From Candidatus Zixiibacteriota bacterium (GTDB lineage Bacteria; Zixibacteria; MSB-5A5; GN15; FEB-12), in contig JBFMGC010000004.1 in assembly GCA_040752815.1 (NCBI GenBank), positions 2,551-66,550 of the forward strand: 64,000 bases of DNA, in the 5' to 3' direction. Position 1 is the stretch's first letter; each line of letters starts with the position of its first letter. Of this stretch, positions 6,964 through 24,149 are shown piece by piece. The position numbers and the translations under genes were made by a program. The notes beneath the pieces were generated by a model. It saw only the letters and a list, made by a program, of their open reading frames with translations, was not told the DNA's origin and did no database searches.

Positions 6964-9645
6964 ATGAAGACAGTAACTGACAACGGCGAAAAGAAATCAA
7001 CCGCCTACTCGGCGGCTGAGATCGAGAATAGGATTTATCAGCATTGGGTGGAGGCGCGCTTTTTCCACGGCTCCTCGGAGTCAAAGAAGAAGCCGTATTC
7101 TATTGTGATTCCACCCCCCAATGTCACCGATGTCCTCCACCTCGGCCACGCCCTGAACAACACCATTCAGGACATCCTGATACGCAAACATCGGATGGAG
7201 GGGTTTGAGAGCGAGTGGCTGCCGGGCACCGACCACGCCGGTATAGCAACCCAGGTGATTGTCGAAAAGCAACTGGCCAAAGAGGGTACGACCCGCCGCG
7301 AAATCGGGCGCGAGAAGTTTGTCGAGCGCACCCGCGCTTGGGCCTATCGCAATAAGGACATTATCCTCAGCCAGTTGCGGCGGATTGGCTGCAGCTGCGA
7401 CTGGGAGCGCACCCGGTTCACCCTCGACGAAAACCTTTCGCGCGCCGTCAGCGAGGTCTTCATCCACCTCTACAACAAAGGCCTGATCTACCGCGGCCAC
7501 CGTATCGTGAACTGGTGCCCGTCGTGCCGGACGTCGCTGTCCGACGACGAGGTCGAACACGAGACCTTCAAAAGCCACCTCTGGTACGTGCGATACAAAA
7601 TCAAAGGCTCGGACGAGTACCTGACCGTTGCTACGACCCGCCCGGAGACAATGCTGGGCGATACGGCGCTGGCAGTGTCACCAAAAGACAGCCGTTACAA
7701 AAAGCTGGTCGGCCGCACCGTTATTCTCCCTATCCTCGAGCGGGAGATACCGATTGTCAGCGACAGTTATGTTGACCCAGAGTTCGGCACCGGGGTAGTC
7801 AAAGTGACCCCCGCTCACGACCCTAACGACTTCGAAATCGGCAAGCGACACGATCTGCCGGAGATCAATATCCTAAACACCGACGGCACCCTCAACGAGA
7901 ACGCGGGCAAGTACAAAGGGTTGGACCGTTACGAAGGCCGCAAGGCGCTAGTGACCGATCTCGAAGCCAAGGGGCTGCTGGAAAAGACTGAGGATTACGA
8001 GCTCTCGGCCGGGACCTGCTATCGCTGCCATTCGGTGGTGGAGCCGTATCTCTCGCTGCAGTGGTTTGTCAAGATGCGCGAGCTGGCCAGCCCGGCTGTG
8101 GAAGTACTCAAGAAGGGCGAACTCCGCTTCCACCCCGACTACTGGGCCAAGACTTATCTCCACTGGATGGAGAATATTCGCGATTGGTGCATCTCCCGGC
8201 AACTCTGGTGGGGGCATCGCATCCCGGTCTGGTACGCCGAGGACGGCACCGCGTTTGTCTCAGTGGATCGACCCGCGGCCGAACAATGCCCCGGCTATGA
8301 CCCGGCTACTCTGGTCCAAGACGAAGATGTTCTCGATACCTGGTTTTCGTCGTGGCTCTGGCCGTTTTCTACGTTCGGCTGGCCCGATAAAACACCGGAA
8401 CTGAGAAAATTCTATCCCACCCGCGTTCTCGTTACCGCCTCGGAAATCATCTTCCTCTGGGTGGCGCGGATGGTCATGGCCGGTTTCGAGTTCATGGGCA
8501 AGTGCCCGTTCAGCGATGTCTATATTCACGGGACGGTGCGCGACGCCAACGGGATCAAGATGTCGAAGTCGCTCGGTAACGGAATTGACCCGGTGGAGAT
8601 TATTGATAAGTACGGCGCGGACTCTCTTCGCATATCGCTGGTGCTGGCCACGCCCGACGGCCAGGACCCGTGGATCAGCCGCAATACTTTCGAGGGCGGT
8701 CGCAACTTTGTCAACAAGCTCTACCAGGTATCGCGTTTTGTCATGCTTCGCCTCGAGGGTCGGTCCCCGGTGTTAGACAAGCTCGATGAATCCGACCTGG
8801 TCATTTTCGACCGCTGGATCCTCTCGCGGCTGGAGCGGACGATTGCGTCGGTGGAGCGATCCTTCGACGAATTCCGCCTCTCCAGCGCCGCCAAGACGCT
8901 GTACAACTTCGTCTGGGAGGACTACTGCTCCTGGTATGTCGAGCTGATTAAGCCGGATCGCCCGGGTGAGCCGATCCGCGAAAACTCGCTGAACGTAGCC
9001 ACCTATGTTCTGGCCCGCATTCTGCGGCTGCTGCACCCGTTTATACCGTTTGTCACTGAGGAAATTTACGGTCAATTGGTGGCTTCCGCCGGCAGGAGCG
9101 AGCGCGACGCTACGCTAGTGTTCGGCCCGTGGCCGAGCTCCGACGGCAGGCATGTCGACGATCGTCTCGAGGAAAGCCTGAAGCAGATTCAGGAGGTGGT
9201 TGTGGCGGTTCGCTCGACCCGATCGGAGTTGAACGTGCCGCCGGGCAAGCGGTCGGATTTGTATGTTCGCGTGAACAACGAATCCTTCGCTCGACTACTT
9301 GAGGATCACATACAGTACTTTCGCTCGCTCGCCCGGGTCGAGAATCTGCATTGTGGAACCACGGTCAAAAAGCCTCCGCTCTCAGCCTCAGCGGTTATCT
9401 CAGGAGCGGAGATCTTCATCCCGCTGGAAGGACTGATCGATATCGAGGTGGAGAAGACACGCTTGAGCAAGGAACTGACCAATTTGAAGGACCAACAGGT
9501 CAAGGTCGCCAAGAAGCTCGCGAACCCCGATTTCCTGGCCAACGCGCCGGCCGAGGTTATCGACCGCGAGAAGCTCAAGAAACGCGACTACGAAGAGCGT
9601 ATCGAGCGGATCAATAAGAATCTTGAGCAGATTCTGGGGTGGTAA
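6964..9645 (+). CDS. valS: valine--tRNA ligase
   Basis: 893 aa. HIGH-type motif (DVLHLGHALN), KMSKS (IKMSKSLGN) and a C-terminal coiled coil. Confidence 0.97.
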   Translation: MKTVTDNGEKKSTAYSAAEIENRIYQHWVEARFFHGSSESKKKPYSIVIPPPNVTDVLHLGHALNNTIQDILIRKHRMEGFESEWLPGTDHAGIATQVIVEKQLAKEGTTRREIGREKFVERTRAWAYRNKDIILSQLRRIGCSCDWERTRFTLDENLSRAVSEVFIHLYNKGLIYRGHRIVNWCPSCRTSLSDDEVEHETFKSHLWYVRYKIKGSDEYLTVATTRPETMLGDTALAVSPKDSRYKKLVGRTVILPILEREIPIVSDSYVDPEFGTGVVKVTPAHDPNDFEIGKRHDLPEINILNTDGTLNENAGKYKGLDRYEGRKALVTDLEAKGLLEKTEDYELSAGTCYRCHSVVEPYLSLQWFVKMRELASPAVEVLKKGELRFHPDYWAKTYLHWMENIRDWCISRQLWWGHRIPVWYAEDGTAFVSVDRPAAEQCPGYDPATLVQDEDVLDTWFSSWLWPFSTFGWPDKTPELRKFYPTRVLVTASEIIFLWVARMVMAGFEFMGKCPFSDVYIHGTVRDANGIKMSKSLGNGIDPVEIIDKYGADSLRISLVLATPDGQDPWISRNTFEGGRNFVNKLYQVSRFVMLRLEGRSPVLDKLDESDLVIFDRWILSRLERTIASVERSFDEFRLSSAAKTLYNFVWEDYCSWYVELIKPDRPGEPIRENSLNVATYVLARILRLLHPFIPFVTEEIYGQLVASAGRSERDATLVFGPWPSSDGRHVDDRLEESLKQIQEVVVAVRSTRSELNVPPGKRSDLYVRVNNESFARLLEDHIQYFRSLARVENLHCGTTVKKPPLSASAVISGAEIFIPLEGLIDIEVEKTRLSKELTNLKDQQVKVAKKLANPDFLANAPAEVIDREKLKKRDYEERIERINKNLEQILGW

Positions 9646-9792
9646 TTCGGGCCACAAGCCGGTGGAAGCGCGCGTTTTGCAGAACCACAATTGTCGCTCG
9701 CTGACGCTTGCTCCGCTCAGGTTCTCCCCTACGATTAGCTTCTGGTACTGCCCGACGCTCCGACCGCCAGACAGGGCATCCCGCAGAAATGA

Positions 9793-9826
9793 AAACCGTC
9801 CGGGGGGAACCGGACGGTTTCGTTGA
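9793..9826. terminator. bidirectional rho-independent terminator
   Basis: 11-bp stem AAACCGTCCGG (9793-9803) / CCGGACGGTTT (9810-9820). An A-tract lies 5' and a T-tract 3', so both strands read stem plus U-run. It sits 34 nt after the minus-strand gene end and 148 nt after valS. Confidence 0.7.
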
Positions 9827-9853
9827 GAAGAGGTATATCAAAAAGAGAAGGGG

Positions 9854-10303
9854 TTAGTTTTGACTTTTCTTTACCATATCTTCAAGGAAGCCTTGCATAG
9901 TCCGGGCGCCGGCGGTGTCGGGATACGACGCGATTTCGACCGGGATCGCTCGATCGGCCTGGTCACCGTAGCGAGCCTTGAGACTGCCCTTGACGATCTC
10001 AGTTAGCCGCCTGGCGGCGATTTCCGCCCCCTGGCGAGGGGTTTCCGGCTGCAACACAGCCAAACAATGGCCCATCAGAAGGTCGACGTGATCACACGCC
10101 CTGACTGCCGCCTTAACTCGGCTGGTCACGTCCTCAAGGACCTCCGCGGCTTGATCGGCGGCGATTTCTCGGGCCGGCCCCAGGTCAATAATCGTAAGGG
10201 AGACAAATACTCGGTACCGCTCAGCGCGATTGAGTTCAACCGCCACTTTGTCCGCGAACGTCCCGGGACACCGCGTATCGATGGTGGTTCTCGGTGCTTC
10301 CAT
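9854..10303 (-). CDS. stand-alone degenerate GGDEF-fold protein (A-site MGHCL, I-site RxxD retained)
   Basis: VRACDHVDLLMGHCLAVLQPET aligns without gaps to the PleD-type VRAIDLPCRYGGEEFVVIMPDT. The upstream RAERYRVFVSLTIIDLG and downstream VEIASYPD match GGDEF-core positions. RBS GGAG lies 8 nt before the ATG. Confidence 0.6.
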   Translation of the reverse strand: MEAPRTTIDTRCPGTFADKVAVELNRAERYRVFVSLTIIDLGPAREIAADQAAEVLEDVTSRVKAAVRACDHVDLLMGHCLAVLQPETPRQGAEIAARRLTEIVKGSLKARYGDQADRAIPVEIASYPDTAGARTMQGFLEDMVKKSQN

Positions 10304-10362
10304 AATCGTTGCTCCACCAAACGGGGCCGTCGTCTGGCATACCTACCTATCTGGTTAGTGTG

Positions 10363-10378
10363 AGCAATAATCGTTCCA
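10363..10378 (-). promoter_or_regulatory. sigma-54 (-24/-12) promoter
   Basis: The minus strand reads TGGAACGATTATTGCT, versus the consensus TGGCACG-N4-TTGCW. GG and GC spacing is exact and 11 of 12 conserved positions match. It lies about 60 nt upstream of the ATG at 10303 and downstream of a bEBP gene. Confidence 0.6.
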
Positions 10379-10664
10379 GTTACCTAATAAGGAGATACGC
10401 GGGAAAACGTTTCCGACCTGAGATCTCGCCCGACGCTTTAGCCGCACTAACTGCTTGTCATGCACGTAGAGGACACTGTGGACAACATCATGATCTGGTC
10501 GTGACATCCACATGACACCTCGACATGTGCAGAGGGGTGCTCAAAACTTGCACAGGGGGACATGATGGTATGTATGGGAGTTTTCTGATTGTGCCGCTGG
10601 GCGACCCTGCCCGGCGGAATGTGCGCCATCCCACTCTCAAGCGCGTGGGCCACCGAAGATGGCC

Positions 10665-12095
10665 CTAAGATGTCGAGTTGAGATTATAGTCTTTGATCTT
10701 GTAGAGCAGGGACCGGTAGCTTATGTCCAGGAGTTCGGCCGCCTTGCGGCGGTTCCAGTTGGTCTTGGTCAGGACCTCGGCAATAAGTCGTTTCTCTTCG
10801 GCAGCGACCTTTCTGCCGACTCTCCCTTTCAGAGAATAACCGACTTCAGCCTCACCCTCTGCCGGTATGGGCGCGATCACCGGTTCCGAGGGCGGCCGGG
10901 GATCCTCGGGGCGTGCCATGTGCGCGGCAGCGGCGATAAGCTCCGTGATTATCTGCTCGTCGGAGCGCACCACCACCTGCTTGACCATATTCTCGAGCTG
11001 GCGGACGTTGCCGGGCCAGTGGAAGGCCATCAGCCGGGCGACCGTTTCGGGCGTCAGTGCCTGGTACTCCTTGCTGTAGAGCTTGTTGTACTTGGCCAGG
11101 AAGTGAGTCAAGAGCAGCGGTATATCTTCTTTTCGATCCCGCAAGGGCGGCAGGAACAACGTGATTTCATTGAGGCGGTAAAACAGATCGTCACGAAATT
11201 CCCGGCTGGATATGGCATGCTCAAGATTGCGGTTAGTGGCGCAGATGATTCGGACATCCACCCGGATGTTGTTGATTCCGCCGACCCGCACGAACTCCTG
11301 CTGCTCGAGTACTTGAAGCAGTTTTGACTGCAGTTCCAGCGGCATATCGCCGATTTCGTCGAGGAATATGGTCCCCTTGTTAGCTGATTCAAACCGACCC
11401 TGCTTGGTTTTGTGCGCGCCCGTAAAGGCGCCTTTCTCGTACCCGAAAAGCTCCGCCTCAAGTAAGTCACGGGGAATGGCGGCACAGTTCACTTTGACAA
11501 ACGGCTGATCCCGACGCGAGGACAACTGGTGCAGAGAACGAGCCACGATCTCCTTACCGGTACCGGACTCACCTCGTATAAGCACAGTCAACTCCGAGTC
11601 GGCCACCTGATCGATTATTCCCTTCACGCGGGCCATCGGTTCGGAATCGCCGACAAATGTTGAGTAGTCGCTGCGCGCTTCCAGCTCTTTCTTCAGAGCG
11701 GAAACCTCCTCCCGAAGTTTCACCCGCTCCATCACACCGTTCAGGTGAATCTCCACTTCACGGACGTCGAACGGCTTGTCGATAAACTCGGCCGCCCCAA
11801 GCCGCATGGAGTCGACCACATACTTGGTGCCTCCATGACCGGAGATCATAACTACCTCGGGCCGGTTCTCCATCTTGTTCAGCTTCTCCAGGACCTCCAG
11901 GCCGGTCATGCCGGGCATCTTGATATCCAGCAGAATCAGGTCCGGTTTCTCCGTGGAGACCATTTGAATGCCCTGGATTCCGTCGGTAGCCGACACAAAC
12001 TCGAAACTCGTAGACAGCCCTTCGGAAAGAATCCAGGCGATCTTGGGATCGTCGTCGATAACCAGCACTTTGATCTTGGCTTTTTCGCGAGGCAT
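10665..12095 (-). CDS. sigma-54-dependent response regulator (NtrC family: REC + AAA+ + Fis-type HTH)
   Basis: REC (VLVIDDD...LILLDIKMPG), Walker A GESGTGKE, GAFTGA loop (YEKGAFTGA), C-terminal HTH (NWNRRKAAELLDISYRSLLYKIK). ATG at 12095 has a GAGAGGG RBS. The ORF-track start at 12140 is a TTG without an RBS. Confidence 0.93.
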   Translation of the reverse strand: MPREKAKIKVLVIDDDPKIAWILSEGLSTSFEFVSATDGIQGIQMVSTEKPDLILLDIKMPGMTGLEVLEKLNKMENRPEVVMISGHGGTKYVVDSMRLGAAEFIDKPFDVREVEIHLNGVMERVKLREEVSALKKELEARSDYSTFVGDSEPMARVKGIIDQVADSELTVLIRGESGTGKEIVARSLHQLSSRRDQPFVKVNCAAIPRDLLEAELFGYEKGAFTGAHKTKQGRFESANKGTIFLDEIGDMPLELQSKLLQVLEQQEFVRVGGINNIRVDVRIICATNRNLEHAISSREFRDDLFYRLNEITLFLPPLRDRKEDIPLLLTHFLAKYNKLYSKEYQALTPETVARLMAFHWPGNVRQLENMVKQVVVRSDEQIITELIAAAAHMARPEDPRPPSEPVIAPIPAEGEAEVGYSLKGRVGRKVAAEEKRLIAEVLTKTNWNRRKAAELLDISYRSLLYKIKDYNLNSTS

Positions 12096-12194
12096 AGTTG
12101 TCGCCCTCTCGAAGTTACTTATCGGCAACAAATCCTGCAATTTAAGTCAGAATCTACCGCCGTTGCCGAAAAGTCGCAATAACCTGCAATAGAA

Positions 12195-14336
12195 TCAAGG
12201 TTTATATGGGAAATACACAGAGACCGTGGTCCCCTTGCCTTCGACGGAGCTCAGATGCAGCGTGCCGCTGTGTGCGGAGATGACCCGCTCCACCACGGCC
12301 AGTCCGAGGCCGGTACCAGTCTCTTTAGTTGTGAAGTAGCGATCAAACACTCGGGACAAGTGCTCTTTCTTGATACCACAGCCGGTGTCCGAGACGTGGA
12401 TGCCGAGGTAGTCTTCATGGCGGTGGGGGGGTCGCTCGATCCGTCCGGTCACAGTCAACTTGCCGCCGTCGCGCATGGCGTCAACCGCGTTAATGAACAG
12501 GTTGAGAAAGACCTCCATCACCTGGTTCTTATTGGCGATGATCTCCCAGTTGCCATCGGAAAAATCGGTTGAGTACTCAATCCGATTCTTCCTCAGGTCA
12601 GGCCCGACAAGCTCGGAGGCTCGCTGAACTATATGGCGCAGGTCGAGCTTGGCGGTTTCATAACGATTGGGATTGGAAAAATTGACCAGTTCCTTGACAA
12701 GGTCGTTCATGCGGTGGATTTCTTCCTCCGCCATCTTGAAGAAATCCGACTTCTCGGTGATATCCGGCCAGCGCTGGCGGAGTATCTGCAGCTCGCCTTT
12801 GATAGTCGTGAGAGGGCGCCGCAGATCGTGCGAAATCTCAGAGATCATGTTCCCCATGGTCATGAGGCGGGTGGCGTTGAGCAGCGCTTTTTCCTTTTCG
12901 AACAGCACGGATGCCTGTGAAATGACCAACTGGGCTAGCGTGAAATCCTCCGGTGAATAAGCGCGTTCGTCGTCGGCACCGAGATAGAACACGAATGCCA
13001 GCTCGCCTGAACGCAAGATGGGAACCGCCATATAGGCGTGGGCCGGCTGGGGAAAATGTTTGTTGCCCCGGATCCGGTCTCCGACGAGTTGACTCAGCGC
13101 GGCTATATCTTCGAGATTCACTTGATCGGGATTGAGCCCGGTGATGAGGACCGCCTCGCGACTTACTCTCGAGAGATCGATCTTGCCGCTTTCGGTGAGC
13201 GGTATATCGGTCTTTCCCAGGGCGCCGGCCGGTATAAGCGCCCGGGCAGCGTTATCCCAGGCGAACCAGATCGCATAGTCGACTGGGAAAGCCCGGCGGA
13301 GCTTCTCGATCAACACCTGGCGAAAGTTTTCCCACGAATCGATCCCGGGCAGAGCGCGTGAGATCTGATGCAGCACTTCGTATTCTACCAACCGACGTCG
13401 GTTCTTTTCAAACTGGGAGGCGTCATCTACCGCCACAGCAGCTTGCGAGGCGAAATTGCTCAGCAGGCGGAGATCGTCACTCGTAAACACCTGGCCGCCG
13501 TTTTTATTGGCCATGTTTATGACCCCGAGCACGGTGTTCTTGATCCGCAGCGGCGCGCAGAGGAGCGACGCCGCGCCGTACCGTTCCCGGTTTATCCTCT
13601 GAAAACGACTGTCCTTCTCGACATCCTCGACAATAAGCGGCTCGCCGGACTTAGCAACGAATCCGGCGATAGAAGCCCCCAGGGGCAGCTTGGTCTTGCG
13701 GACGATGTCGTCGTGAAGGCCGATAGCCGCCTCAATGGTCAGGTATTGACCGGTTTCGTCCACCAGCATAATCGAGCCGACATTGGCCTCAGTCACAGTC
13801 GAGGCCAGGATGACGATCTGGCGCAGCAGGTCATTGAGGTTCGCCAGCGAACCTATCGACTTACCCGCCTCGTAGAGGGCGTTGAGTTCCCCCACACGCT
13901 GCTGGAGAATGAGATTGGAGAGGCGGAGTTCTTCCACCAATCGCAAGCGGGCGAGCTCGGACTCGCGACGCTCCAGGGCGCGGGTTACCGACAGCTCCAG
14001 GCGATCAAAATCGACCGGCTTGAGAAGGTAATCGTAAGCGCCCAGACTGATGGCCTCCAGCGCGCTGTCCATCGACGCGTACCCGGTCAGCAGGATGACC
14101 GGGATGCCCTCATCGACCTGCTTGACTATCTGGAGAATCTCCAGACCGTCGAGAACGGGCATTTTGATATCCGAGATGACGAGATCGACTTTCTGGTCAC
14201 GGATCGCCTTGGCGGCATCGGGCGCCTGCTGAAAGGCGAGGACTTCGCGTCCGTCTCCCTGTAGCAGCGCCGAGAGTGACTCGCACAAACGGAGTTCGTC
14301 GTCGACTATGAATATCCGGGCAGCGGGTTTGGTCAT
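12195..14336 (-). CDS. hybrid sensor kinase REC-GAF-GAF-HisKA-HATPase (no TM segments seen)
   Basis: N-terminal receiver (IFIVDDE...LVISDIKMP), two GAF-like regions, H-box ISEISHDLRRPL, and G-boxes DTGCGI / GTGLGL. ATG at 14336 lies 5 nt after the upstream stop. Confidence 0.88.
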   Translation of the reverse strand: MTKPAARIFIVDDELRLCESLSALLQGDGREVLAFQQAPDAAKAIRDQKVDLVISDIKMPVLDGLEILQIVKQVDEGIPVILLTGYASMDSALEAISLGAYDYLLKPVDFDRLELSVTRALERRESELARLRLVEELRLSNLILQQRVGELNALYEAGKSIGSLANLNDLLRQIVILASTVTEANVGSIMLVDETGQYLTIEAAIGLHDDIVRKTKLPLGASIAGFVAKSGEPLIVEDVEKDSRFQRINRERYGAASLLCAPLRIKNTVLGVINMANKNGGQVFTSDDLRLLSNFASQAAVAVDDASQFEKNRRRLVEYEVLHQISRALPGIDSWENFRQVLIEKLRRAFPVDYAIWFAWDNAARALIPAGALGKTDIPLTESGKIDLSRVSREAVLITGLNPDQVNLEDIAALSQLVGDRIRGNKHFPQPAHAYMAVPILRSGELAFVFYLGADDERAYSPEDFTLAQLVISQASVLFEKEKALLNATRLMTMGNMISEISHDLRRPLTTIKGELQILRQRWPDITEKSDFFKMAEEEIHRMNDLVKELVNFSNPNRYETAKLDLRHIVQRASELVGPDLRKNRIEYSTDFSDGNWEIIANKNQVMEVFLNLFINAVDAMRDGGKLTVTGRIERPPHRHEDYLGIHVSDTGCGIKKEHLSRVFDRYFTTKETGTGLGLAVVERVISAHSGTLHLSSVEGKGTTVSVYFPYKP

Positions 14337-14340
14337 GGCG

Positions 14341-15717
14341 TTACGGCTTGGCCACCAACGGAAGGTGTATATCGAAACAGCCCCCGTGGTCTGCATTCGT
14401 ATAGATTATCGACCCCTTGTGGCTTTTGATGATACTCTGACAAATGGACAGTCCCAGGCCGGAGCCGTCATCACCCTTGGTCGTGAAGAACGGCTCGAAA
14501 ATGCGCGGGATGACTTCCGGTGGGATGCCGGGGCCGGTGTCGGCGAAGCGAACGTGTGCCTCGTTGCCGCGGCGGTTGAGTTCCACCGTGAGTCGTCCAT
14601 CCTGTTTCATGGCGTCGCGCGCATTCAAGATCAGGTTCAGAAAGACTTGTCGGAGGTGGTCGGCGCTCCCTTTCACAAACAGCGGCTCGGACGACAGTTT
14701 TCTCTGTATGTCGATTCGGGAAATCGAAAGCTGGCGCGAGGACAGCGCCAGGGTTCCGTCGAGAATCTCTCGGAGGTCCACGACGGCGAATTCGACCCGC
14801 GACGGCCGGTGAAACCGCCGCAGCTCCTCGACGATTCTGGCAATCCGATCGATCTCCTGGCTGACTACCTCGACATAGTGCTTCTGTTTGTCCGGCTCGC
14901 CGCCGGAACGCTGCAGCAGCAACAGGTAGTTCTTGATAATACCGAGCGGGTTGTTGACCTCATGGGCGATTTTGGCCGACATCTCGCCGAGCGTAGCCAG
15001 CCGCTCCGCCTGCATGAGCTGACTCTGCGCCTCCCAGAGTTGTTCATTGGCTGCCTTCTCCCCTTCATAGAGGCGGGCGTTTTCAATAGCGACAGAAATC
15101 TGGTTTCCCAGCGACGAAATAAACTCTATTTCGTCCTGTGTAAACGCCTTCTCGGCGATCTTGTCGGCCAGCAGAAACAGCCCGGCCAGGCGGGTTTTGT
15201 AAATGAGCGGGACCAACATACCGCCTTTGAAGAAGCCAAGCACCTCTCTCTCCCTCACCGTGGTTAGGTCAGGCGAGAGATCCACCACCGGTGTCGGTCG
15301 GTTCAGTCGACTGAGATACCGTATGAGCCGGGTGTCATCCTGGAAGCCGCTTCCGGCAGGCGGCATGGCTCCGGACCCCTTCGCTTTGGCCAGCCGGAAC
15401 TCGCGGGAATCGGCGCTCTCTTTCAGAAAAAGGGCGGCCCGAAGCGCGCCCACCTGTCCCAGGCAGGTGAAGATGAACGACTCGAGAAGAGTTTTGTAAT
15501 CCAGCACCGCGTTGAAATTGCGGCTGATTTCGAATATCGTGTAGAGATCGAAGATCTTGCGCTTGAGCTGACGATTGGTCCGCGATAACTCCTCCAAGCG
15601 GGCCTCTGCGGATTTCTCCGGTTCGGGCGGGCGCTTTTTGAGCGGCGAGGGGCGAGTTGCCCGTGGGATTGACGCGCTTCGCTTTCCCTTGAGATGGCTG
15701 TCCCTGGTTCGGGCCAT
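14341..15717 (-). CDS. soluble GAF-domain sensor histidine kinase
   Basis: Basic Lys/Arg/Pro-rich N-terminal tail, a coiled coil, a GAF region, H-box SAKIAHEVNNPL, and an ATPase domain (DTGPGI, GSGLGL). Its ATG overlaps the folC stop by 1 nt (TAATG). Confidence 0.88.
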   Translation of the reverse strand: MARTRDSHLKGKRSASIPRATRPSPLKKRPPEPEKSAEARLEELSRTNRQLKRKIFDLYTIFEISRNFNAVLDYKTLLESFIFTCLGQVGALRAALFLKESADSREFRLAKAKGSGAMPPAGSGFQDDTRLIRYLSRLNRPTPVVDLSPDLTTVREREVLGFFKGGMLVPLIYKTRLAGLFLLADKIAEKAFTQDEIEFISSLGNQISVAIENARLYEGEKAANEQLWEAQSQLMQAERLATLGEMSAKIAHEVNNPLGIIKNYLLLLQRSGGEPDKQKHYVEVVSQEIDRIARIVEELRRFHRPSRVEFAVVDLREILDGTLALSSRQLSISRIDIQRKLSSEPLFVKGSADHLRQVFLNLILNARDAMKQDGRLTVELNRRGNEAHVRFADTGPGIPPEVIPRIFEPFFTTKGDDGSGLGLSICQSIIKSHKGSIIYTNADHGGCFDIHLPLVAKP

Positions 15718-19420: not shown

Positions 19421-20977
19421 CTACCTGGGATTGAGCACCGCTACCGGCACGATCATTTCTTCAAGCGAAATGCCGCCATGCTGGAACGAATTCTGGAAGC
19501 GGCGAACCATTTCGTTATAGTTGTTGGGGTAGACGAAATAGAAATCTTCCCTGGCGATCAGGAACGTGGTGCCGAGAGTGAAAGCCGGCAGGCGCCACTC
19601 CTGCGGCTTCTTGATAACCAACGCCTCTTTTGGATCGGCCTTCAGGTTATCGCCGTATTTGTAACGCAAATTGGTCGATGTAGTCCGCCGCCCGTGGGCC
19701 ATGGTACCGCGACGGCACAGCACCGAACCGTGATCAGAGGTTACGACGACTGTAAAACCTCGGCCGGCAAAAGCTTTAAGCAAACCGAACAGGGGCGAAT
19801 GAGTGAACCAGGTTCGCATCAACATGCGGAAAGCGGCCTCGGAGCCGGCGATTTCCTTCAGGATCACGTTTGATGATCGCCCGTGCACGAGAATATCAAG
19901 GAAATTGAAAACAAAGGTCACCAATCGGCTATCGAAGTAATCCGATGCTCGCCGGAGGATTTCATCCCCCTGGCTGTTATCATTTATCTTGATGAACTTG
20001 AGCGATTTCTCGAGCCGAACGCCATGGCGCGCCAGGTTCTCCATGAGCAGACGGTCCTCGTACTTGTTGAGCGAGCCTTCGTCCTCGCCGTACGTATCGG
20101 GGTAGGCACGGTGGATGTCGTCCGGAAACATGCCGCTGAACAGGGCGTTGCGCGCGAACGGAGTGGCACTCGGGAGTATTGCATAGTAGTAGTGCCGCTG
20201 GATATCGTAGAACTCGGCAACCATCGGCTCGACCAGCATCCACTGATCCAGGCGCATGCAGTCTACTACGATATAGACGACCGGCCGGCCCTGCTTGAGC
20301 GGCGGCACGACATACTTGCCGGTAATGTCCGGCGAGAGCATCGGGCGGCTCTTGCCTCGGAGCCAGTCAGGGTAGGTTCTCAGGATGTACTTGGTGAACT
20401 CGGTATTCCACTCGCGCAGCGTGCCATCGTGGGTCTCCTGCAAACCGGAGTCCGTGCTTTCGTCGAGTTCGAGATTCCACTCCGCCAAAATACGGGCGGC
20501 GTCCTGCCAGTCCTCGGGCGACATGGCGCCGTACAGACGCTGACTGAAGCGATTGATTTCGGTGATATATCGCCGCATGGATGACGAGCCGATAATTCGG
20601 CGGGAATCGAGCAGCCGTTTTATCACCATCAAAATCTGCGACGGCACCACCGGCTTGACCAGGTAGTCATCGATCTTCTGCCCGATCGCCTCGTCCATGA
20701 GCGTTTCTTCTTCCGACTTGGTCACCATGACCACCGGGAGGTGCGGCTTGAGCGCCTTGATTTCCTCGAGCGTGGTCAAGCCATCCTTGCCCGGCATCAT
20801 TTCGTCCAGCAGCACCAAATCGAAGTTCTGGCGCTGGACTTCCGCGATACCGTCGTCCCCGGACATTGCCCCGACTAATTCAAATCCCTTGCCTTCAAGG
20901 AAGACAAAATGCGAGCGCAGCGAATCGATCTCATCATCGATCCAGAGAATTCTCTTCTTGTCGGTAGTGGTTGGCAT
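19421..20977 (-). CDS. response regulator with C-terminal PglZ/alkaline-phosphatase-like domain (PorX-like)
   Basis: REC (ILWIDDEIDS...LVLLDEMMPGKDG...VVMVTKSEEE) followed by a PglZ-like region (VVYIVVDCMRLDQW, ILPSATPFARNALFSGMFP, VVVTSDHGS). 518 aa from the ATG at 20977. The ORF-track start at 21085 overlaps the upstream kinase. Confidence 0.75.
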   Translation of the reverse strand: MPTTTDKKRILWIDDEIDSLRSHFVFLEGKGFELVGAMSGDDGIAEVQRQNFDLVLLDEMMPGKDGLTTLEEIKALKPHLPVVMVTKSEEETLMDEAIGQKIDDYLVKPVVPSQILMVIKRLLDSRRIIGSSSMRRYITEINRFSQRLYGAMSPEDWQDAARILAEWNLELDESTDSGLQETHDGTLREWNTEFTKYILRTYPDWLRGKSRPMLSPDITGKYVVPPLKQGRPVVYIVVDCMRLDQWMLVEPMVAEFYDIQRHYYYAILPSATPFARNALFSGMFPDDIHRAYPDTYGEDEGSLNKYEDRLLMENLARHGVRLEKSLKFIKINDNSQGDEILRRASDYFDSRLVTFVFNFLDILVHGRSSNVILKEIAGSEAAFRMLMRTWFTHSPLFGLLKAFAGRGFTVVVTSDHGSVLCRRGTMAHGRRTTSTNLRYKYGDNLKADPKEALVIKKPQEWRLPAFTLGTTFLIAREDFYFVYPNNYNEMVRRFQNSFQHGGISLEEMIVPVAVLNPR

Positions 20978-20987
20978 CGGGTTCTTC

Positions 20988-22244
20988 TCAGAGTCCGCCG
21001 GATATGGGGAGCGTGACTTGGAAAACGGTTTCGCCGGGCTGAGATCGCACCAGGGTGATCCGGCCCACGTGGTACTCTTCGACAATCCGCTTAACCAGAG
21101 TCAGTCCCATGCCCCAGCCGCGCTTTTTTGTGGTAAAACCGGGACGGAATATCTTTCGGGCCGATCCCGGCGGTATGCCGTGGCCGTTGTCAGCGATTTC
21201 AAGCATAACCTGTGTGCGATCAGGGTTGATACTGGTGCTTATACTCACGCGGCCCGATTTCGGATCGACCGCCTGCAGGCTGTTCTTGACCAGATTCTCC
21301 AGCACCCACGAAAACAGCTCCGGATTTAGCCGCACCGGCGGGATGTTGCCCGGAGTGACAACTATCTGTGTGCCCTGTCCTTCGAACGGCAACCGGGCGC
21401 GATAATATTGCACGCAGTCGGTTACCAGGGAGTTGAGATCACATTCTTTCACTTCCGGTATTGAGCCAATCTGACTGAACCGGGTGGCGACCCGCTGGAG
21501 TCGGATAACATCCATTCGCATATTCTGGACAGTATTGTCGACGAGCTGTACTTGTCCTTCGCGATCCAAGTCCTGCCGGTTTTCGGGGCTGATTACTTCC
21601 AGCCAGCCCATGAGCGACGACAACGGCGTACCCAACTGATGAGCCGTCTCCTTAGCCATGCCGACCCAGATGTACCGTTCTTCGGAGCGCCGGATATTCT
21701 GGAAACCGATTACCGCTACGGTTACAAAAGCCAGCACTATGCCGATAGCGACAAACGGCATCACTCGCAACTGCTTGATTATTTCGGAGTCGCCATAGAG
21801 GAAGTAGTTGATGTTGTTTTCGCCGAAATTGAGCGGGTACTCACCATTGTGGCGGTACATGGCCTCCGCTTCTTCCTTTACGCGCTCAAGCGATCTTCGG
21901 CTGGTGTCGTCGGAAGGGATACCCGGAATATTGCGCCAGGACACCGGTTCTCTGTTACTGTCGAGTACCACCACCGGAAATCTTGCCTTGACGATGATTT
22001 CATCAAAAATGAACGGCAGAGCGTCTTCCGAACTCGGCGACGTCACCGCCCATTGCCATAAATGAACATATTTATCGACCTGGTCACGCGTATCGATCTG
22101 CAGGCGTTCTATAACCTGAAAAGTGTACCAGATGAACGCGCCCGAGATAACCACCACGCCGGTTACCAGAAATATCTTAAAAAAAGTCGATCGCCCGATA
22201 TACAGATCGGCCAGACCCCCACGCGTTTTTTTTATCATGGCCAT
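20988..22244 (-). CDS. membrane sensor histidine kinase (two TM segments flanking a ~135-aa periplasmic loop; PorY-like)
   Basis: TM1 FFKIFLVTGVVVISGAFIWY, TM2 VMPFVAIGIVLAFVTVAVIGF, H-box KETAHQLGTPLSSL, ATPase DNGHGI / GWGMGL. Its start overlaps the serS stop by 1 nt. Confidence 0.88.
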   Translation of the reverse strand: MAMIKKTRGGLADLYIGRSTFFKIFLVTGVVVISGAFIWYTFQVIERLQIDTRDQVDKYVHLWQWAVTSPSSEDALPFIFDEIIVKARFPVVVLDSNREPVSWRNIPGIPSDDTSRRSLERVKEEAEAMYRHNGEYPLNFGENNINYFLYGDSEIIKQLRVMPFVAIGIVLAFVTVAVIGFQNIRRSEERYIWVGMAKETAHQLGTPLSSLMGWLEVISPENRQDLDREGQVQLVDNTVQNMRMDVIRLQRVATRFSQIGSIPEVKECDLNSLVTDCVQYYRARLPFEGQGTQIVVTPGNIPPVRLNPELFSWVLENLVKNSLQAVDPKSGRVSISTSINPDRTQVMLEIADNGHGIPPGSARKIFRPGFTTKKRGWGMGLTLVKRIVEEYHVGRITLVRSQPGETVFQVTLPISGGL

Positions 22245-23509
22245 CAGCCGATTCTATCCGCCCCGCCCATGTACTTTCGGAGCACCTCGGGAATAGTCAC
22301 GCTGCCGTCCGGGTTCTGGTAATTTTCCAATATCGCGGGAATGAGCCGTGCCAGGGCCAGACCGGAGCCGTTGAGCGTGTGGGGGAAGTCAAGTTTCTTG
22401 TCAACATTGCGGTAGCGAAGATTCATGCGTCGGGCCTGGAACGACTCAAAGTTAGAAATCGACGAAATCTCGAGATACCGCTCCACGCCGGCGGCCCAGA
22501 GCTCGAGATCGTAGGTCTTGGCTGAAGCAAATGACAGGTCTCCAGTAGCCAGCATGACCACCCGGTAGTGGATGTTCAGGCTGCGAAGAACCTGTTCACA
22601 CTGTGCCACCAGGGATTCGAGTTCGTCGTACGATCTTTCCGGGTGGACGATCTTGACCAGCTCGACCTTGTCAAACTGGTGCACCCGGATCATCCCCCGG
22701 GTATCTTTACCGGCGGCGCCGGCTTCTCTACGGAAACAGGGGGAATGGGCCACCATGTACACCGGGAGTTCTTCGTCGGTGATGATCCGTTGTTTGTACA
22801 GATTCGTCACTGGTACTTCGGCAGTGGGGATCAGCCAGAGGTCATCAGACTCGATCCGGTACATGTCGTCGGCCAGTTTGGGCAACTGTCCGGTACCGTA
22901 CATGGTGTCGGCGTTTACGATATACGGCGTGGAGACTTCGACAAACCCGGCGGCAGTGTGCAGGTCAAGCATATAGCTGATCAACGCCCGCTGCAGCCGA
23001 GCGCCCATTCCGCGGAGAACATAAAAGCCCGATCCGGCAACAGCCGCGCCTGCGGCCAAATCCAGTATGCCCAGCTTCTCGCCGACTTCCCAGTGCGGCA
23101 GGACCTTGAAAGCCGGCTCCAGTTTCGCGCCCCATTCACGCACCACCTTGTTGGCGGCGTTGTCTTTGCCGACCGGTACCGATTCGTGGGGCAGGTTCGG
23201 CACCAATTGCAGGAGCTTCTGGAGGCCCGCTTCCAGTTCGCGCAGGTTTTCGTCCTGTACTTTGATATCGTCGCCCAGGCGGCGGGTGGCCTCGATAGCT
23301 GCGTCGGCGCTTTGCCCGGCTTTCTTCTTGATTGCGATATCGGCCGAGGCCTGGTTGCGCTCGGCTTTGAGCCGCTCGACCGTACGGATTATCTGGCGTC
23401 GGCGTTCGTCGAGAGCGAGGATTCTGTCGATATCACACTGCTCGTTTTTGTGGGCCGCACCGGTCCGAACCAGGTCGGGAGCCTCGCGGATTAACTTCAT
23501 GTCCAGCAT
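22244..23509 (-). CDS. serS: serine--tRNA ligase
   Basis: 421 aa. N-terminal coiled-coil arm and class-II core (FRREAG, GSGLALARL...). Confidence 0.96.
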   Translation of the reverse strand: MLDMKLIREAPDLVRTGAAHKNEQCDIDRILALDERRRQIIRTVERLKAERNQASADIAIKKKAGQSADAAIEATRRLGDDIKVQDENLRELEAGLQKLLQLVPNLPHESVPVGKDNAANKVVREWGAKLEPAFKVLPHWEVGEKLGILDLAAGAAVAGSGFYVLRGMGARLQRALISYMLDLHTAAGFVEVSTPYIVNADTMYGTGQLPKLADDMYRIESDDLWLIPTAEVPVTNLYKQRIITDEELPVYMVAHSPCFRREAGAAGKDTRGMIRVHQFDKVELVKIVHPERSYDELESLVAQCEQVLRSLNIHYRVVMLATGDLSFASAKTYDLELWAAGVERYLEISSISNFESFQARRMNLRYRNVDKKLDFPHTLNGSGLALARLIPAILENYQNPDGSVTIPEVLRKYMGGADRIG

Positions 23510-23655
23510 CGGTGATCCTCAAGTCGGCATTGCTCTTAGAAAGGTCCGAAACTAAGGGCCAAGTTAGCACAGTTCAATGAAAATTACCAGTCCGGGATCG
23601 GCCCGATACGTTACCGGTGCACTTTGAGAATTCTCAATCGGCGGCCAGAAATTCC

Positions 23656-23683
23656 TTGCCTTTTCTGCGAGTCGACGTAAAAT
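23656..23683 (+). promoter_or_regulatory. candidate sigma-70 promoter for rpmB
   Basis: TTGCCT (23656-23661), a 16-nt spacer, then TAAAAT (23678-23683), 35 nt upstream of the ATG. Confidence 0.35.
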
Positions 23684-23717
23684 AGGGAGCTGTAGCTACT
23701 ATCGAATTGAGGATTAC

Positions 23718-23939
23718 ATGGCCAAGGCTTGTGAAATCTGCGGGAAAAAGCCGCTCTTCGGACATAACGTTTCTCACGCTCACAACGTGACCAAGCGGCG
23801 ATTCATGCCCAATTTGCAGCAGGTGCGTGCGATTGTAAACGGCCGGCCCCGGCGGGTGACTGTCTGCGCGTCGTGCCTGAAAAGCGGCAAAGTGGTAAAG
23901 AACGTTCAGGGACGGAAACCCCGCCCAGCTGCCGTGTAA
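23718..23939 (+). CDS. rpmB: 50S ribosomal protein L28
   Basis: [34 protein letters not shown]. Confidence 0.95.
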
Positions 23940-23963
23940 TTCAGTGGCATGGAATAAGTTACG

Positions 23964-23989
23964 GCCGCCCTTATGGGGCGGCTTTTTTT
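23964..23989 (+). terminator. rho-independent terminator of rpmB
   Basis: GCCGCCC (23964-23970) pairs with GGGCGGC (23976-23982), followed by a T7 run (23983-23989). Confidence 0.85.
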
Positions 23990-24020
23990 GCCTTTGCGGG
24001 CAGCTTTAGATCAGGGTTCC

Positions 24021-24062
24021 ATGAAATAAATGCCGCCGGCAGGGTAGTTTAACCGGCGGCAT
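24021..24062 (-). terminator. probable terminator of the dcw cluster (after ftsZ)
   Basis: 10-bp stem ATGCCGCCGG (24030-24039) / CCGGCGGCAT (24053-24062). On the minus strand it is followed by TTATTTCAT. Two further hairpins (24101-24121 and about 24075-24093) lie between it and the ftsZ stop. Confidence 0.55.
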
Positions 24063-24149
24063 GGTGGAGGAACCAATAGAGCTGCTCGCTCTATGTTTGT
24101 CTCCCGGCACGAGGCCGGGAGGTATGTGCTTTGACTTATCCCTCAGGGA

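What the first reader, a model, noticed from the sequence alone, without database searches (positions are those of the whole stretch)
9854..10303. Stand-alone 149-aa GGDEF-fold protein with a destroyed active site but a canonically placed RxxD I-site
- **Alignment:** VRACDHVDLLMGHCLAVLQPET aligns position for position with the PleD-type VRAIDLPCRYGGEEFVVIMPDT.
- **What is lost:** the GG(D/E)EF A-site is replaced by MGHCL. The N-terminal DxLTGLxNR substrate-binding segment is also absent.
- **What is kept:** RxxD (RACD) sits exactly 5 residues upstream, as in inhibitory or c-di-GMP-binding I-sites.
- **Interpretation:** this pattern is known from c-di-GMP receptor proteins built on dead GGDEF domains. 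Here it is a single-domain protein.
- **Context:** it appears to be the sigma-54-dependent output of a three-protein phosphorelay, which is an unusual arrangement.
Basis: partly seen in the sequence, partly recalled or inferred. Interest (0 to 1): 0.6.

Follow-up and report, generated by a model that had tools for sequence, protein, structure and literature searches.

The report
Dead GGDEF protein keeping c-di-GMP site
A small protein found throughout the uncultured phylum Zixibacteria has the fold of a cyclic-di-GMP-making enzyme but has lost the catalytic site, keeps only the pocket that binds the finished messenger, and is switched on by a dedicated sigma-54 signalling cassette, so it is most likely an inducible sensor or sponge for that messenger.

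Summary
ORF 9854..10303 (-) encodes a 149-aa protein. Its AF2 model (pLDDT 80.5) matches only GGDEF domains in the PDB, and its family profile matches diguanylate cyclases at E=1.8e-9.

**Dead active site.** MGHCL replaces GG(D/E)EF. Across 289 relatives this position carries 195 different pentapeptides. The N-terminal DxLTGL segment and the guanine-binding residues are also missing.

**Intact I-site.** All four residues of the PleD-type allosteric site are essentially invariant: R68xxD71, R99 (=R390) and R26 (=R313), jointly present in 284 of 285 relatives.

**Regulation.**
- The gene is monocistronic.
- It lies behind a -24/-12 sigma-54 promoter at 10363..10378, and an equivalent element is found in all 81 orthologous loci.
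- A conserved upstream activator site lies further upstream.
- An NtrC-type bEBP sits directly upstream in 78 of 78 informative loci, usually preceded by two GAF histidine kinases.
- Relatives of about 30% identity keep the bEBP, the promoter and, in 5 of 6 sampled contexts, a kinase.

**Verdict.** This is a new, Zixibacteria-wide, stand-alone variant of the known degenerate-GGDEF I-site receptor class. c-di-GMP binding and the downstream action remain untested.

The parts
9854..10303 (-). 149-aa stand-alone degenerate GGDEF-fold protein (dGGDEF); stop codon included
   Evidence: ORF. AF2 model has pLDDT 80.5 and pTM 0.76. Foldseek hits are GGDEF domains only. Profile against PDB gives E=1.8e-9. 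213 close homologues.
10091..10102 (-). Codons R68-A-C-D71: the RxxD primary I-site motif
   Evidence: Read from the sequence. R68 and D71 are 100% conserved in 288 relatives. They align on the RKSD of DgcR; the DgcR I-site mutant AKSA scores 8.5 bits lower.
10007..10009 (-). Codon R99, equivalent to PleD R390 (third primary I-site residue)
   Evidence: Lies +31 residues from R68, as R390 does from R359. Aligned to the equivalent Arg of 3ign. 99% conserved. Its role is described in PMC7288161.
10226..10228 (-). Codon R26, equivalent to PleD R313 (secondary I-site Arg, donated across a dimer)
   Evidence: Lies 14 residues before D40, as R313 does before D327. The NCBIfam PleD model aligns query residue 26 to model position 316. 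100% conserved.
10061..10075 (-). Codons M77-G-H-C-L81 at the position of GG(D/E)EF: destroyed A-site
   Evidence: Read from the sequence. 195 different pentapeptides occupy this position among 289 relatives.
10312..10318 (-). Shine-Dalgarno-like GGTGGAG, 8 nt before the ATG
   Evidence: Read from the sequence.
10363..10378 (-). Sigma-54 (-24/-12) promoter TGGAACGATTATTGCT
   Evidence: One mismatch to TGGCACG-N4-TTGCW; one of two such sites in the window. nGGAAY-N5-TTGCT is present upstream of the gene in 81 of 81 loci with 0-2 mismatches, against mostly 3-4 on the control strand.
10526..10554 (-). Upstream activator site TGTGCA-N5-TGAGCA-N6-TGCACA, about 150-190 nt upstream of the -24 element
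   Evidence: Only match in the 64-kb window. Hits at the same position in 32 loci, with 2 off-target hits in 1.3 Mb. Conserved block in the MAFFT alignment of 71 intergenic regions.
10448..10458 (-). Weak IHF-like or bending site ACAAGCAGTTA between the UAS and the promoter (consensus in other loci TCAAnnnnTTA)
   Evidence: Conserved block 'CAATgAgTTA'. The window copy departs at one position, and its function is inferred only.
9792..9821 (-). 12-bp GC-rich hairpin followed by UUUUCAUUU: a likely bidirectional terminator between the convergent valS and dGGDEF genes
   Evidence: RNA fold: centroid -20.3 kcal/mol, z=-2.96. The consensus terminator scanner did not list it.
10665..12140 (-). NtrC/AtoC-type bacterial enhancer-binding protein (REC, sigma-54 AAA+ with GAFTGA, HTH_8)
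   Evidence: Pfam and NCBIfam. GAFTGA is seen in the translation. Directly upstream of the dGGDEF gene in 78 of 78 informative loci, at 64-88% identity.
12195..14396 (-). REC-GAF-HisKA-HATPase_c kinase. The start is uncertain; the ATG at 14336 is likelier.
   Evidence: Pfam. Syntenic in about 60 loci.
14341..15717 (-). Cytoplasmic GAF-HisKA-HATPase_c histidine kinase
   Evidence: Pfam. Syntenic in about 60 loci.

Best explanation
The ORF encodes a catalytically dead, N-terminally truncated, single-domain GGDEF-fold protein. It founds a family found throughout Zixibacteria.

**Ligand binding (inferred).** The domain has lost the whole substrate and catalysis apparatus. It retains intact the four-residue allosteric product site of diguanylate cyclases: R68xxD71 and R99 form the primary site, and R26 is the arginine donated across a dimer. 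It therefore most likely binds intercalated (c-di-GMP)2. Because both halves of the site are present, the ligand probably cross-links it into a dimer, or to another protein that offers an arginine.

**Transcription (shown by comparative genomics).** The gene is transcribed alone, from a sigma-54 promoter with a UAS. The activator is the adjacent NtrC-type bEBP.

**Signal input (inferred).** The bEBP is in turn phosphorylated by a two-tier cascade of cytoplasmic GAF-domain histidine kinases.

**Net effect.** An unknown intracellular signal raises the copy number of a c-di-GMP-binding module that has no enzymatic or output domain. That module then acts either by sequestering c-di-GMP or as a c-di-GMP-dependent adaptor on a partner. 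The always-adjacent bEBP and the REC domains are the first candidates for that partner.

**Status of each step.** The fold, the dead A-site, the conserved I-site, the promoter, UAS and synteny are shown computationally. c-di-GMP binding, dimerisation, the order of phosphotransfer and the downstream action are inferred.
For: **Fold**
- AF2 model pLDDT 80.5, with residues 21-110 mostly above 85.
- The top 50 Foldseek PDB hits are all GGDEF domains, including c-di-GMP-bound GcbC, WspR, PleD and the receptor PelD.
- The family profile matches diguanylate cyclases at E=1.8e-9. 31 of 40 members hit PF00990.

**Dead A-site**
- MGHCL occupies the motif position. This position is unconstrained, with 195 pentapeptides in 289 relatives.
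- The alpha1-alpha2 region that carries K332, N335 and D344 in PleD is about 4 residues shorter and unconserved.
- The DxLTGL segment is absent.

**I-site**
- R26 is 100% conserved, R68 100%, D71 100% and R99 99%. They occur together in 284 of 285 relatives, down to about 30% identity.
- These are exactly the PleD residues R313, R359, D362 and R390 (PMC7288161 and PMC12943098).
- An isolated GGDEF domain binds c-di-GMP through this site (GdpX6, Kd about 9 uM, lost in the D403A mutant; PMC7996900).
- Degenerate GGDEF proteins with an intact I-site are established effectors (PopA, SgmT. Survey in PMC2952852).

**Regulation**
- A -24/-12 element is present in 81 of 81 loci, and in 6 further divergent contexts.
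- A conserved UAS.
- No sigma-70-like site.
- A terminator hairpin.
- A bEBP with GAFTGA lies directly upstream in 78 of 78 loci.
- Of six sampled divergent contexts, four keep the whole kinase/REC-kinase/bEBP cassette despite different flanking genes, one has a 7TM-GAF kinase plus bEBP, and one has a bEBP alone.

**c-di-GMP use in the phylum**
- A stand-alone PilZ protein with an intact RxxxR...DxSxxG motif lies 7 kb from the gene in one Zixibacteria MAG.
Against: - No binding data exist. RxxD, R390 and R313 equivalents are also common in ordinary active GGDEF domains (canonical set), so their presence alone does not prove a receptor role.
- I could not show that Zixibacteria encode an active diguanylate cyclase or phosphodiesterase. 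None lies in the 64-kb window or within 10 kb of any locus. No literature addresses this.
- No c-di-GMP riboswitch is present in the window.
- The main family has further invariant residues that the I-site model does not explain: R90, Q91, E94, E123, S126, P128, D129, G132, A133 and the C-terminal N149.
- No co-evolution signal with the bEBP or the kinases exceeds a housekeeping control. The adaptor-on-bEBP idea therefore has no direct support.
Confidence: 0.6

Rival explanations
1. Nucleotide-independent regulator. The dead GGDEF fold serves only as a protein-protein interaction scaffold. One example would be a PspA-like anti-activator that is induced by the bEBP and feeds back on it or on the kinases. 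On this reading the I-site residues are conserved for structural or interface reasons.
For: - The only gene that always accompanies the dGGDEF is the bEBP, across at least three different genomic contexts.
- Family-specific invariant residues lie outside the I-site.
- Degenerate GGDEF/EAL proteins that act without binding c-di-GMP are known (CsrD; PMC2952852).
Against: - In the wider alignment, down to about 30% identity, the I-site residues are among the few positions that stay invariant, while the family-specific residues and D40 drift.
- There is no co-evolution signal with the bEBP: partial r = 0.22, against 0.45 for the MazG control.
Confidence: 0.15
2. The conserved Arg/Asp pocket binds a different guanine nucleotide rather than c-di-GMP. 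Candidates are pGpG, (p)ppGpp, cGAMP or GTP.
For: - No cyclase was found near the gene.
- A PleD structure with both c-di-GMP and ppGpp bound exists in the PDB hit list (9g85).
Against: - All four residues correspond one-to-one to the site characterised for (c-di-GMP)2.
- A PilZ receptor is encoded in a related MAG.
- The GTP-binding A-site residues are gone.
Confidence: 0.1
3. Dominant-negative 'anti-cyclase'. The induced dead domain heterodimerises with active GGDEF cyclases. c-di-GMP cross-links its I-site to theirs, and this locks them in the product-inhibited geometry. It therefore lowers synthesis rather than sensing.
For: - Both the primary (R68, D71, R99) and the trans (R26) halves of the I-site are retained. 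This is what cross-linking between two GGDEF domains needs (PMC7288161).
- The protein evolves fast outside these sites: mean distance 1.01, against 0.32 for ValRS.
Against: - No partner cyclase has been identified.
- This reading is a special case of the best explanation and also requires c-di-GMP binding.
Confidence: 0.1
4. A residual enzyme: a non-canonical cyclase that still makes a cyclic dinucleotide despite its odd motif. AGDEF and other degenerate-motif cyclases are a precedent.
For: - The metal-binding Asp of strand beta1 (D40 = PleD D327) is invariant in the main family.
- Active cyclases with degenerate motifs exist (VCA0965, ECA3270; cited in PMC7996900).
Against: - The motif position is unconstrained: 195 variants, with no acidic pair conserved.
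- Equivalents of K332, N335 and D344 and the DxLTGL segment are missing.
- D40 falls to 87% in the wider family.
Confidence: 0.03

Closest known systems
PelD (Pseudomonas aeruginosa) C-terminal degenerate GGDEF domain
   Same: Degenerate A-site with an intact RxxD I-site used as a c-di-GMP receptor. PelD structures (4dmz, 4dn0, 4eu0) are among the Foldseek hits. 2 of 40 family members weakly hit Pfam PelD_GGDEF.
   Different: PelD is a membrane protein of about 455 aa with a GAF domain, and it is embedded in an exopolysaccharide synthase operon. The protein here is a soluble 149-aa single domain with no biosynthetic neighbours. It is no closer in sequence to PelD than to ordinary cyclases.
PopA (Caulobacter) and SgmT (Myxococcus): I-site effectors with degenerate GGDEF
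   Same: Non-catalytic GGDEF domains that act through c-di-GMP binding at the I-site (PMC7996900; PMC2952852).
   Different: Both carry REC or kinase domains in the same polypeptide, which provide localisation or output. Here the REC-containing proteins are separate genes, and the GGDEF domain stands alone and lacks its N-terminal segment.
Product-inhibited diguanylate cyclases PleD, WspR, DgcR
   Same: The same fold and the same four I-site residues, in the same register (R313, R359, D362, R390). These structures are the best sequence and structure matches. c-di-GMP cross-linking of two domains is the documented mechanism.
   Different: Those are active enzymes in which the I-site is a brake. 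Here nothing is left to brake, so the site must itself be the function.
Stand-alone PilZ receptors (e.g. DgrA; MapZ from my own knowledge)
   Same: The closest analogue in function. These are small single-domain c-di-GMP binders that act as adaptors on other proteins (DgrA is mentioned in PMC12943098).
   Different: An unrelated fold and binding motif. None is known to me as the dedicated product of a sigma-54/bEBP cassette.
PspF-PspA type circuits (my own knowledge, not tested here)
   Same: A bEBP gene sits next to a sigma-54-dependent gene for a small protein. In the Psp case that small protein feeds back on the bEBP.
   Different: There is no sequence or fold relationship, and feedback here is pure conjecture. 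The co-evolution test was uninformative.

Membership tests
GGDEF domain superfamily (PF00990 / nucleotidyl-cyclase palm fold) | beta-alpha-alpha-beta-beta-alpha-beta-alpha fold of the GGDEF domain | tested here: met
   The AF2 secondary-structure order is H-E-H-E-E-H-E-H. The top 50 Foldseek PDB hits are all GGDEF domains, TM 0.46-0.68.
GGDEF domain superfamily (PF00990 / nucleotidyl-cyclase palm fold) | Sequence-profile match above the curated threshold | tested here: inconclusive
   The window protein scores 15 bits against a gathering score of 23.8, and 21.6 against 37.4 for TIGR00254. The family profile, however, gives E=1.8e-9 against PDB cyclases, and 31 of 40 members hit PF00990 at E<=0.01.
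Active diguanylate cyclases | GG(D/E)EF catalytic motif | tested here: not met
   MGHCL in the window protein. 195 different pentapeptides in 289 relatives.
Active diguanylate cyclases | Substrate-binding and transition-state residues (PleD L294, F331, K332, N335, D344; list from PMC12943098) | tested here: not met
   The N-terminal segment is absent. The alpha1-alpha2 region is shortened and unconserved.
Active diguanylate cyclases | Metal-binding Asp of strand beta1 (PleD D327) | tested here: met
   D40 is invariant in the main family and 87% conserved in the wider set. The partner residue E370 is lost.
Degenerate-GGDEF I-site c-di-GMP receptors (PelD/PopA/SgmT type) | Degenerate A-site together with RxxD five residues upstream | tested here: met
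   R68 and D71 are 100% conserved.
Degenerate-GGDEF I-site c-di-GMP receptors (PelD/PopA/SgmT type) | Additional I-site arginines (equivalents of PleD R390 and R313) | tested here: met
   R99 is 99% and R26 100% conserved. The register was checked against 3ign and the NCBIfam PleD model.
Degenerate-GGDEF I-site c-di-GMP receptors (PelD/PopA/SgmT type) | Demonstrated c-di-GMP binding that depends on the I-site | not testable with these tools
   Requires purified protein and DRaCALA or ITC.
Degenerate-GGDEF I-site c-di-GMP receptors (PelD/PopA/SgmT type) | Fused sensory, output or membrane domains, as in all characterised members | tested here: not met
   149 aa with no room for another domain. 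289 relatives of 125-240 aa were analysed, and listed family members are mostly 140-195 aa.
Sigma-54-dependent, bEBP-activated promoter | -24 GG and -12 GC elements with canonical spacing, at the correct distance and orientation | tested here: met
   TGGAACGATTATTGCT lies 60 nt before the ATG. It is conserved in 81 of 81 loci.
Sigma-54-dependent, bEBP-activated promoter | Upstream activator site and a cognate bEBP with a GAFTGA loop | tested here: met
   Conserved UAS. bEBP domains. GAFTGA seen in the translation.
Sigma-54-dependent, bEBP-activated promoter | rpoN present in the genome; transcription shown to depend on it | not tested
   rpoN was not looked for in the window.
His-Asp-His-Asp phosphorelay | Hpt (or equivalent) phosphotransfer module between two REC domains | tested here: not met
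   Pfam finds only GAF, HisKA, HATPase_c, REC, AAA+ and HTH_8. The arrangement is better described as a kinase cascade.

The most novel reading that the evidence does not exclude
A natural 'split PleD': a transcriptionally inducible, I-site-only GGDEF module.

- It is the dedicated output of a core, phylum-wide sigma-54 kinase cascade.
- It converts a phosphorylation signal into a change in second-messenger availability without any enzyme, by stoichiometric sequestration of (c-di-GMP)2.
- Alternatively, or in addition, c-di-GMP cross-links it through R26 and the RxxD/R99 site to the REC domain of its own bEBP or of the REC-kinase. That would close a messenger-gated feedback loop.
Probability: 0.2. 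Interest if true: 0.7.

Novelty: new variant of a known kind. Interest (0 to 1): 0.5.

Why it matters
Degenerate GGDEF domains with an intact I-site are an accepted class of c-di-GMP effector. Every characterised member, however, is fused to other domains that supply localisation or output.

This family reduces the receptor to the bare I-site-bearing domain. It places that domain under a dedicated and very strongly conserved sigma-54 circuit in a phylum with no cultured representative.

**If binding is confirmed, three things follow.**
- It gives a minimal, soluble model for I-site recognition and for c-di-GMP-mediated cross-linking.
- It provides a first handle on second-messenger signalling in Zixibacteria.
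- It may be an example of messenger buffering controlled by gene expression rather than by cyclase or phosphodiesterase activity.

**Annotation.** Database records call members 'diguanylate cyclase'. They almost certainly are not.

Tried and rejected
- **Wrong spacer.** My first sigma-54 pattern used N9 and missed the site. N8 corrected it.
- **Wrong UAS spacing.** My first UAS pattern used N6. N5 corrected it.
- **PADLOC defence models:** no hit.
- **Rfam on the whole window:** no hit, so no c-di-GMP riboswitch.
- **Terminator.** The consensus scanner listed nothing in 9600..10700. Direct folding does show a strong hairpin.
- **Exact look-up of the window protein** in the contig index: not on record.
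- **Origin of the nearest canonical GGDEF proteins.** I tried to learn whether they come from Zixibacteria through cluster names. No organism names were returned.
- **Motif and HMM scans** of the window and of 1.35 Mb of loci for canonical GGDEF, EAL and HD-GYP found none. The only real c-di-GMP-related hit was one PilZ gene. The 'GGDEF' and 'PilZ' regex hits in L023 and L014 lie in alternative frames and were rejected.
- **Mirror-tree test** for co-evolution of the dGGDEF with the bEBP or kinases, controlling for ValRS. Partial correlations of 0.02-0.41 were no higher than the MazG control at 0.45, so the test was uninformative.
- **Literature.** Nothing links Zixibacteria to c-di-GMP. No characterised stand-alone degenerate GGDEF receptor was found.
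- **Spurious ORF** considered and rejected: there are 289 relatives with a residue-specific conservation pattern.
Full report
**1. The observation**

The ORF exists as described: 9854..10303 on the minus strand, ATG start, 149 aa. The reading frame is open for only 13 further codons upstream and holds no alternative start. The protein cannot carry an extra N-terminal domain.

Reading the DNA directly:
- 10091..10102 (-) encodes R68-A-C-D71.
- 10061..10075 (-) encodes M77-G-H-C-L81.
- RxxD therefore sits exactly five residues before the position where a diguanylate cyclase has GG(D/E)EF.

Against PDB 3ign, query RACDHVDLLMGHCL pairs with RQSDSAGRYGGEEF.

For the single sequence the similarity is marginal:
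- Pfam GGDEF E=0.022, 15 bits against a gathering score of 23.8.
- TIGR00254 E=1.4e-4.

At family level it is not marginal:
- A 40-member alignment (A1) used as a profile finds PDB diguanylate cyclases at E=1.8e-9.
- 31 of the 40 members hit PF00990 on their own.
- An AlphaFold2 model (pLDDT 80.5, pTM 0.76, core residues mostly above 85) retrieves only GGDEF domains among its top 50 Foldseek PDB hits. These include WspR, YfiN, GcbC, TM1788, DosC, PleD, DgcR and the receptor PelD.

**2. What is lost**

- The GG(D/E)EF position is degenerate in the window protein and unconstrained across the family. Among 289 small relatives it carries 195 different pentapeptides.
- The region between strand beta1 and helix alpha2 carries K332, N335 and D344 in PleD (residue list from PMC12943098). 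Here it is about four residues shorter and shows no conserved position.
- The profile match begins at GGDEF profile position 19, so the DxLTGLxNR segment has no counterpart.
- Only the beta1 metal-binding aspartate survives. D40 is invariant in the main family and 87% conserved in the wider set.

An enzymatic role is therefore very unlikely.

**3. What is kept**

Published structural work defines the allosteric I-site of PleD as four residues (PMC7288161; PMC12943098):
- R359 and D362, which form RxxD;
- R390 from the same domain;
- R313, donated by the neighbouring GGDEF domain.

By spacing and by the HMM alignments these correspond to R68, D71, R99 and R26 of the window protein. The spacings are +31 from RxxD to the helix-alpha3 arginine, and 14 residues from the helix-alpha0 arginine to the beta1 aspartate.

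In 289 relatives that lack the GGDEF motif:
- R26, R68 and D71 are 100% conserved.
- R99 is 99% conserved.
- All four occur together in 284 of 285 sequences.

In the subset that is only about 30% identical (alignment A2), these residues are among the few invariant columns. Residues specific to the main family drift.

A direct control comes from the PDB search. DgcR wild type (RKSD) scores 35.9 bits against the family profile. The deposited I-site mutant (AKSA) scores 27.4 bits.

**4. Family and distribution**

- The close family has 213 members at E<=1e-3. Almost all are 140-170 aa, and every organism name given is Zixibacteria or GN15.
- The window protein is identical to a 'hypothetical protein' of a Candidatus Zixiibacteriota MAG.
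- A scan of one genome per GTDB species found 90 confirmed copies. 80 loci were retrieved.
- An exhaustive search of 1.84 billion cluster representatives, followed by a second search with a profile of its divergent hits, adds a wider set of small motif-less relatives. These again come only from Zixibacteria where named.
- There is a sharp score gap before ordinary multi-domain cyclases begin.

**5. Genomic context**

Synteny is remarkably stable: folC, then GAF-kinase, REC-GAF-kinase, bEBP and dGGDEF, then convergent valS and mazG.
- The bEBP lies directly upstream in all 78 loci whose contig reaches far enough.
- The kinase pair is present in about 60 loci. It is absent in 5 loci that have enough upstream DNA (L013, L030, L031, L045, L063).
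- Four divergent relatives (P0267, P0305, P0312, P0338) sit in the same four-gene cassette although the downstream genes differ.
- One subfamily (P0164) follows a 7TM-GAF kinase and a different bEBP that is 39% identical to the window's.
- P0171 follows a bEBP that is 64% identical to the window's, with no adjacent kinase.

The invariant unit is therefore bEBP plus dGGDEF.

**6. Regulatory signals**

*Promoter.*
- Sixty nucleotides upstream of the ATG lies TGGAACGATTATTGCT (10363..10378, minus strand). It has one mismatch to the sigma-54 consensus TGGCACG-N4-TTGCW.
- It is one of only two such sites on both strands of the window.
- In all 81 loci the 250 nt upstream of the gene contain nGGAAY-N5-TTGCT with 0, 1 or 2 mismatches (38, 34 and 9 loci). 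The opposite strand of the same regions mostly gives 3-4 mismatches.
- The divergent contexts carry TGGCAC/T-N5-TTGCW.

*Upstream elements.*
- An alignment of 71 intergenic regions shows a conserved block about 150-190 nt upstream of the -24 element: TGTGCA-N5-TGnGCA-N6/7-TGCAyA. An IHF-like TCAAnnnnTTA and an A/T-tract block lie between it and the promoter.
- The window copy (10526..10554) is the only match in 64 kb.
- A relaxed pattern hits the equivalent position in 32 loci and gives only two other places in 1.3 Mb.

*Other signals.*
- No sigma-70-like promoter is present.
- A 12-bp hairpin with a U-tract lies about 30 nt after the stop codon (9792..9821).
- The bEBP has REC, sigma-54 AAA+ (with GAFTGA) and HTH_8 domains. 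It is an NtrC/AtoC-type regulator that falls below every equivalog cut-off.

The gene is thus a monocistronic unit driven by sigma-54 and the bEBP. This rests on comparative evidence and has not been shown experimentally. No Hpt domain is present, so 'phosphorelay' should read 'kinase cascade'. Its order is inferred.

**7. Mechanism**

*Shown computationally:* the fold, the dead A-site, the fully conserved I-site and the conserved promoter architecture.

*Inferred:*
- The protein binds intercalated (c-di-GMP)2. Isolated GGDEF domains do this through the same residues (GdpX6, Kd about 9 uM, abolished by the Asp mutation; PMC7996900).
- Because it has both the cis and trans halves of the site, the ligand cross-links it into a dimer or to another protein.
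- With no output domain, it can act by sequestration or as an adaptor.

*Observations that bear on the choice between those two:*
- Outside the conserved motifs it evolves about three times faster than the bEBP or ValRS (mean distance 1.01 against 0.34 and 0.32). This fits a ligand-centred function.
- Further invariant residues in the main family are unexplained: R90, Q91, E94, E123, S126, P128, D129, G132, A133 and N149. They may mark a partner surface.
- A mirror-tree test gave no specific signal for the bEBP or the kinases.

*Whether the phylum uses c-di-GMP at all:*
- The only indirect evidence is a stand-alone PilZ gene with an intact RxxxR...DxSxxG motif, 7 kb from the cassette in one MAG (PF07238, 39.6 bits against a gathering score of 22.5).
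- No canonical cyclase, EAL or HD-GYP gene lies in the window or within 10 kb of any locus.
- No c-di-GMP riboswitch is present in the window.

**8. Comparison with what is known**

Degenerate GGDEF domains with an intact I-site are an accepted effector class.
- Examples are PopA, SgmT and PelD.
- A 2010 survey already noted that most degenerate GGDEF-only proteins keep the I-site (PMC2952852).

The protein meets the sequence-level criteria of that class. It fails the criteria for an active cyclase. It differs from every characterised member in three ways:
- it is a bare, N-terminally truncated single domain;
- it is under dedicated sigma-54/bEBP control;
- it is conserved across a phylum.

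I found no paper describing such a protein or c-di-GMP signalling in Zixibacteria. The literature library is incomplete, so this is absence of evidence only. Functionally the nearest analogue is a stand-alone PilZ adaptor.

**9. Verdict**

- It is a new variant of a known kind, not a new principle.
- Interest is moderate (0.5). It offers a minimal I-site receptor, a clean and testable regulatory circuit in an uncultured phylum, and a correction to 'diguanylate cyclase' annotations.
- The more novel readings are an inducible messenger sponge, or a 'split PleD' cross-linked to its own regulator. Neither is excluded, and I put them together at about 0.2.

Noticed in passing
L081 8001-8585 (P0164 subfamily; also L082): This subfamily of the dead-GGDEF proteins is 192-194 aa long, with about 45 close homologues. 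It carries an N-terminal coiled-coil-like extension. It sits behind a different module, a 7TM-GAF-HATPase kinase plus a bEBP only 39% identical to the window's, with its own TGGCACAGTGTTTGCC promoter at L081 7817-7832.
   Followed up: partly
L054 17367-17747 (-): A stand-alone 127-aa PilZ protein with an intact RRSARR...DLSSSG motif (PF07238, 39.6 bits) lies about 7 kb from the cassette in a Zixibacteria MAG. It is the only independent hint found that the phylum uses c-di-GMP.
   Followed up: partly
L087 5001-5531 and L088 5001-5537: The called gene starts are probably too far upstream. The sigma-54 promoter (TGGCATTCATTTTGCA / TGGCATCTATTTTGCA) lies just inside the called ORF, and a later ATGAAAAAC start fits the family alignment.
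   Followed up: partly
L007, L008, L013, L014, L018, L023 and others; L063: Many loci with the same cassette and with ValRS 69-91% identical to the window's come from records titled 'uncultured Ignavibacteriales/Ignavibacteriaceae'. One is titled 'Candidatus Deferrimicrobium'. These titles are probably taxonomic mislabels of Zixibacteria-lineage MAGs.
   Followed up: no
window 10665..12140 (-) compared across L001-L080: The bEBP is as conserved as valyl-tRNA synthetase (mean Kimura distance 0.34 against 0.32; 64-88% identity). Its presumed target evolves three times faster (1.01). Such constraint suggests that the bEBP has more targets or partners than this one gene.
   Followed up: partly
window 54501..54516 (-): This is the second near-consensus sigma-54-like site in the window, TGGCACGTGTATTGGA, with one mismatch. 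The mismatch destroys the -12 GC dinucleotide. Its context was not examined.
   Followed up: no
window 9792..9821: The GC-rich hairpin between the convergent valS and dGGDEF genes has U/T runs on both strands and could terminate both transcripts. The consensus terminator scanner missed it.
   Followed up: partly
window 14336..14396: The longest ORF call for the REC-GAF kinase overlaps the end of the upstream kinase gene by 56 nt. An ATG at 14336 (MTKPAARIFIVDD...), 5 nt after that gene's stop codon, is the more plausible start. This suggests that the two kinase genes are co-transcribed.
   Followed up: no
window 9935..9937 (codon E123) and 10184..10186 (codon D40): In the main family an invariant Glu replaces the conserved Gly of the GGDEF 'SxG' strand beta4. 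That strand should lie next to the retained metal-binding Asp of beta1. This could be a remodelled acidic site. It is not conserved in the wider family.
   Followed up: no
window 19421..38571 (-): A long uninterrupted array of same-strand genes lies here, with about 15 ORFs of 338-692 aa. It was not annotated.
   Followed up: no
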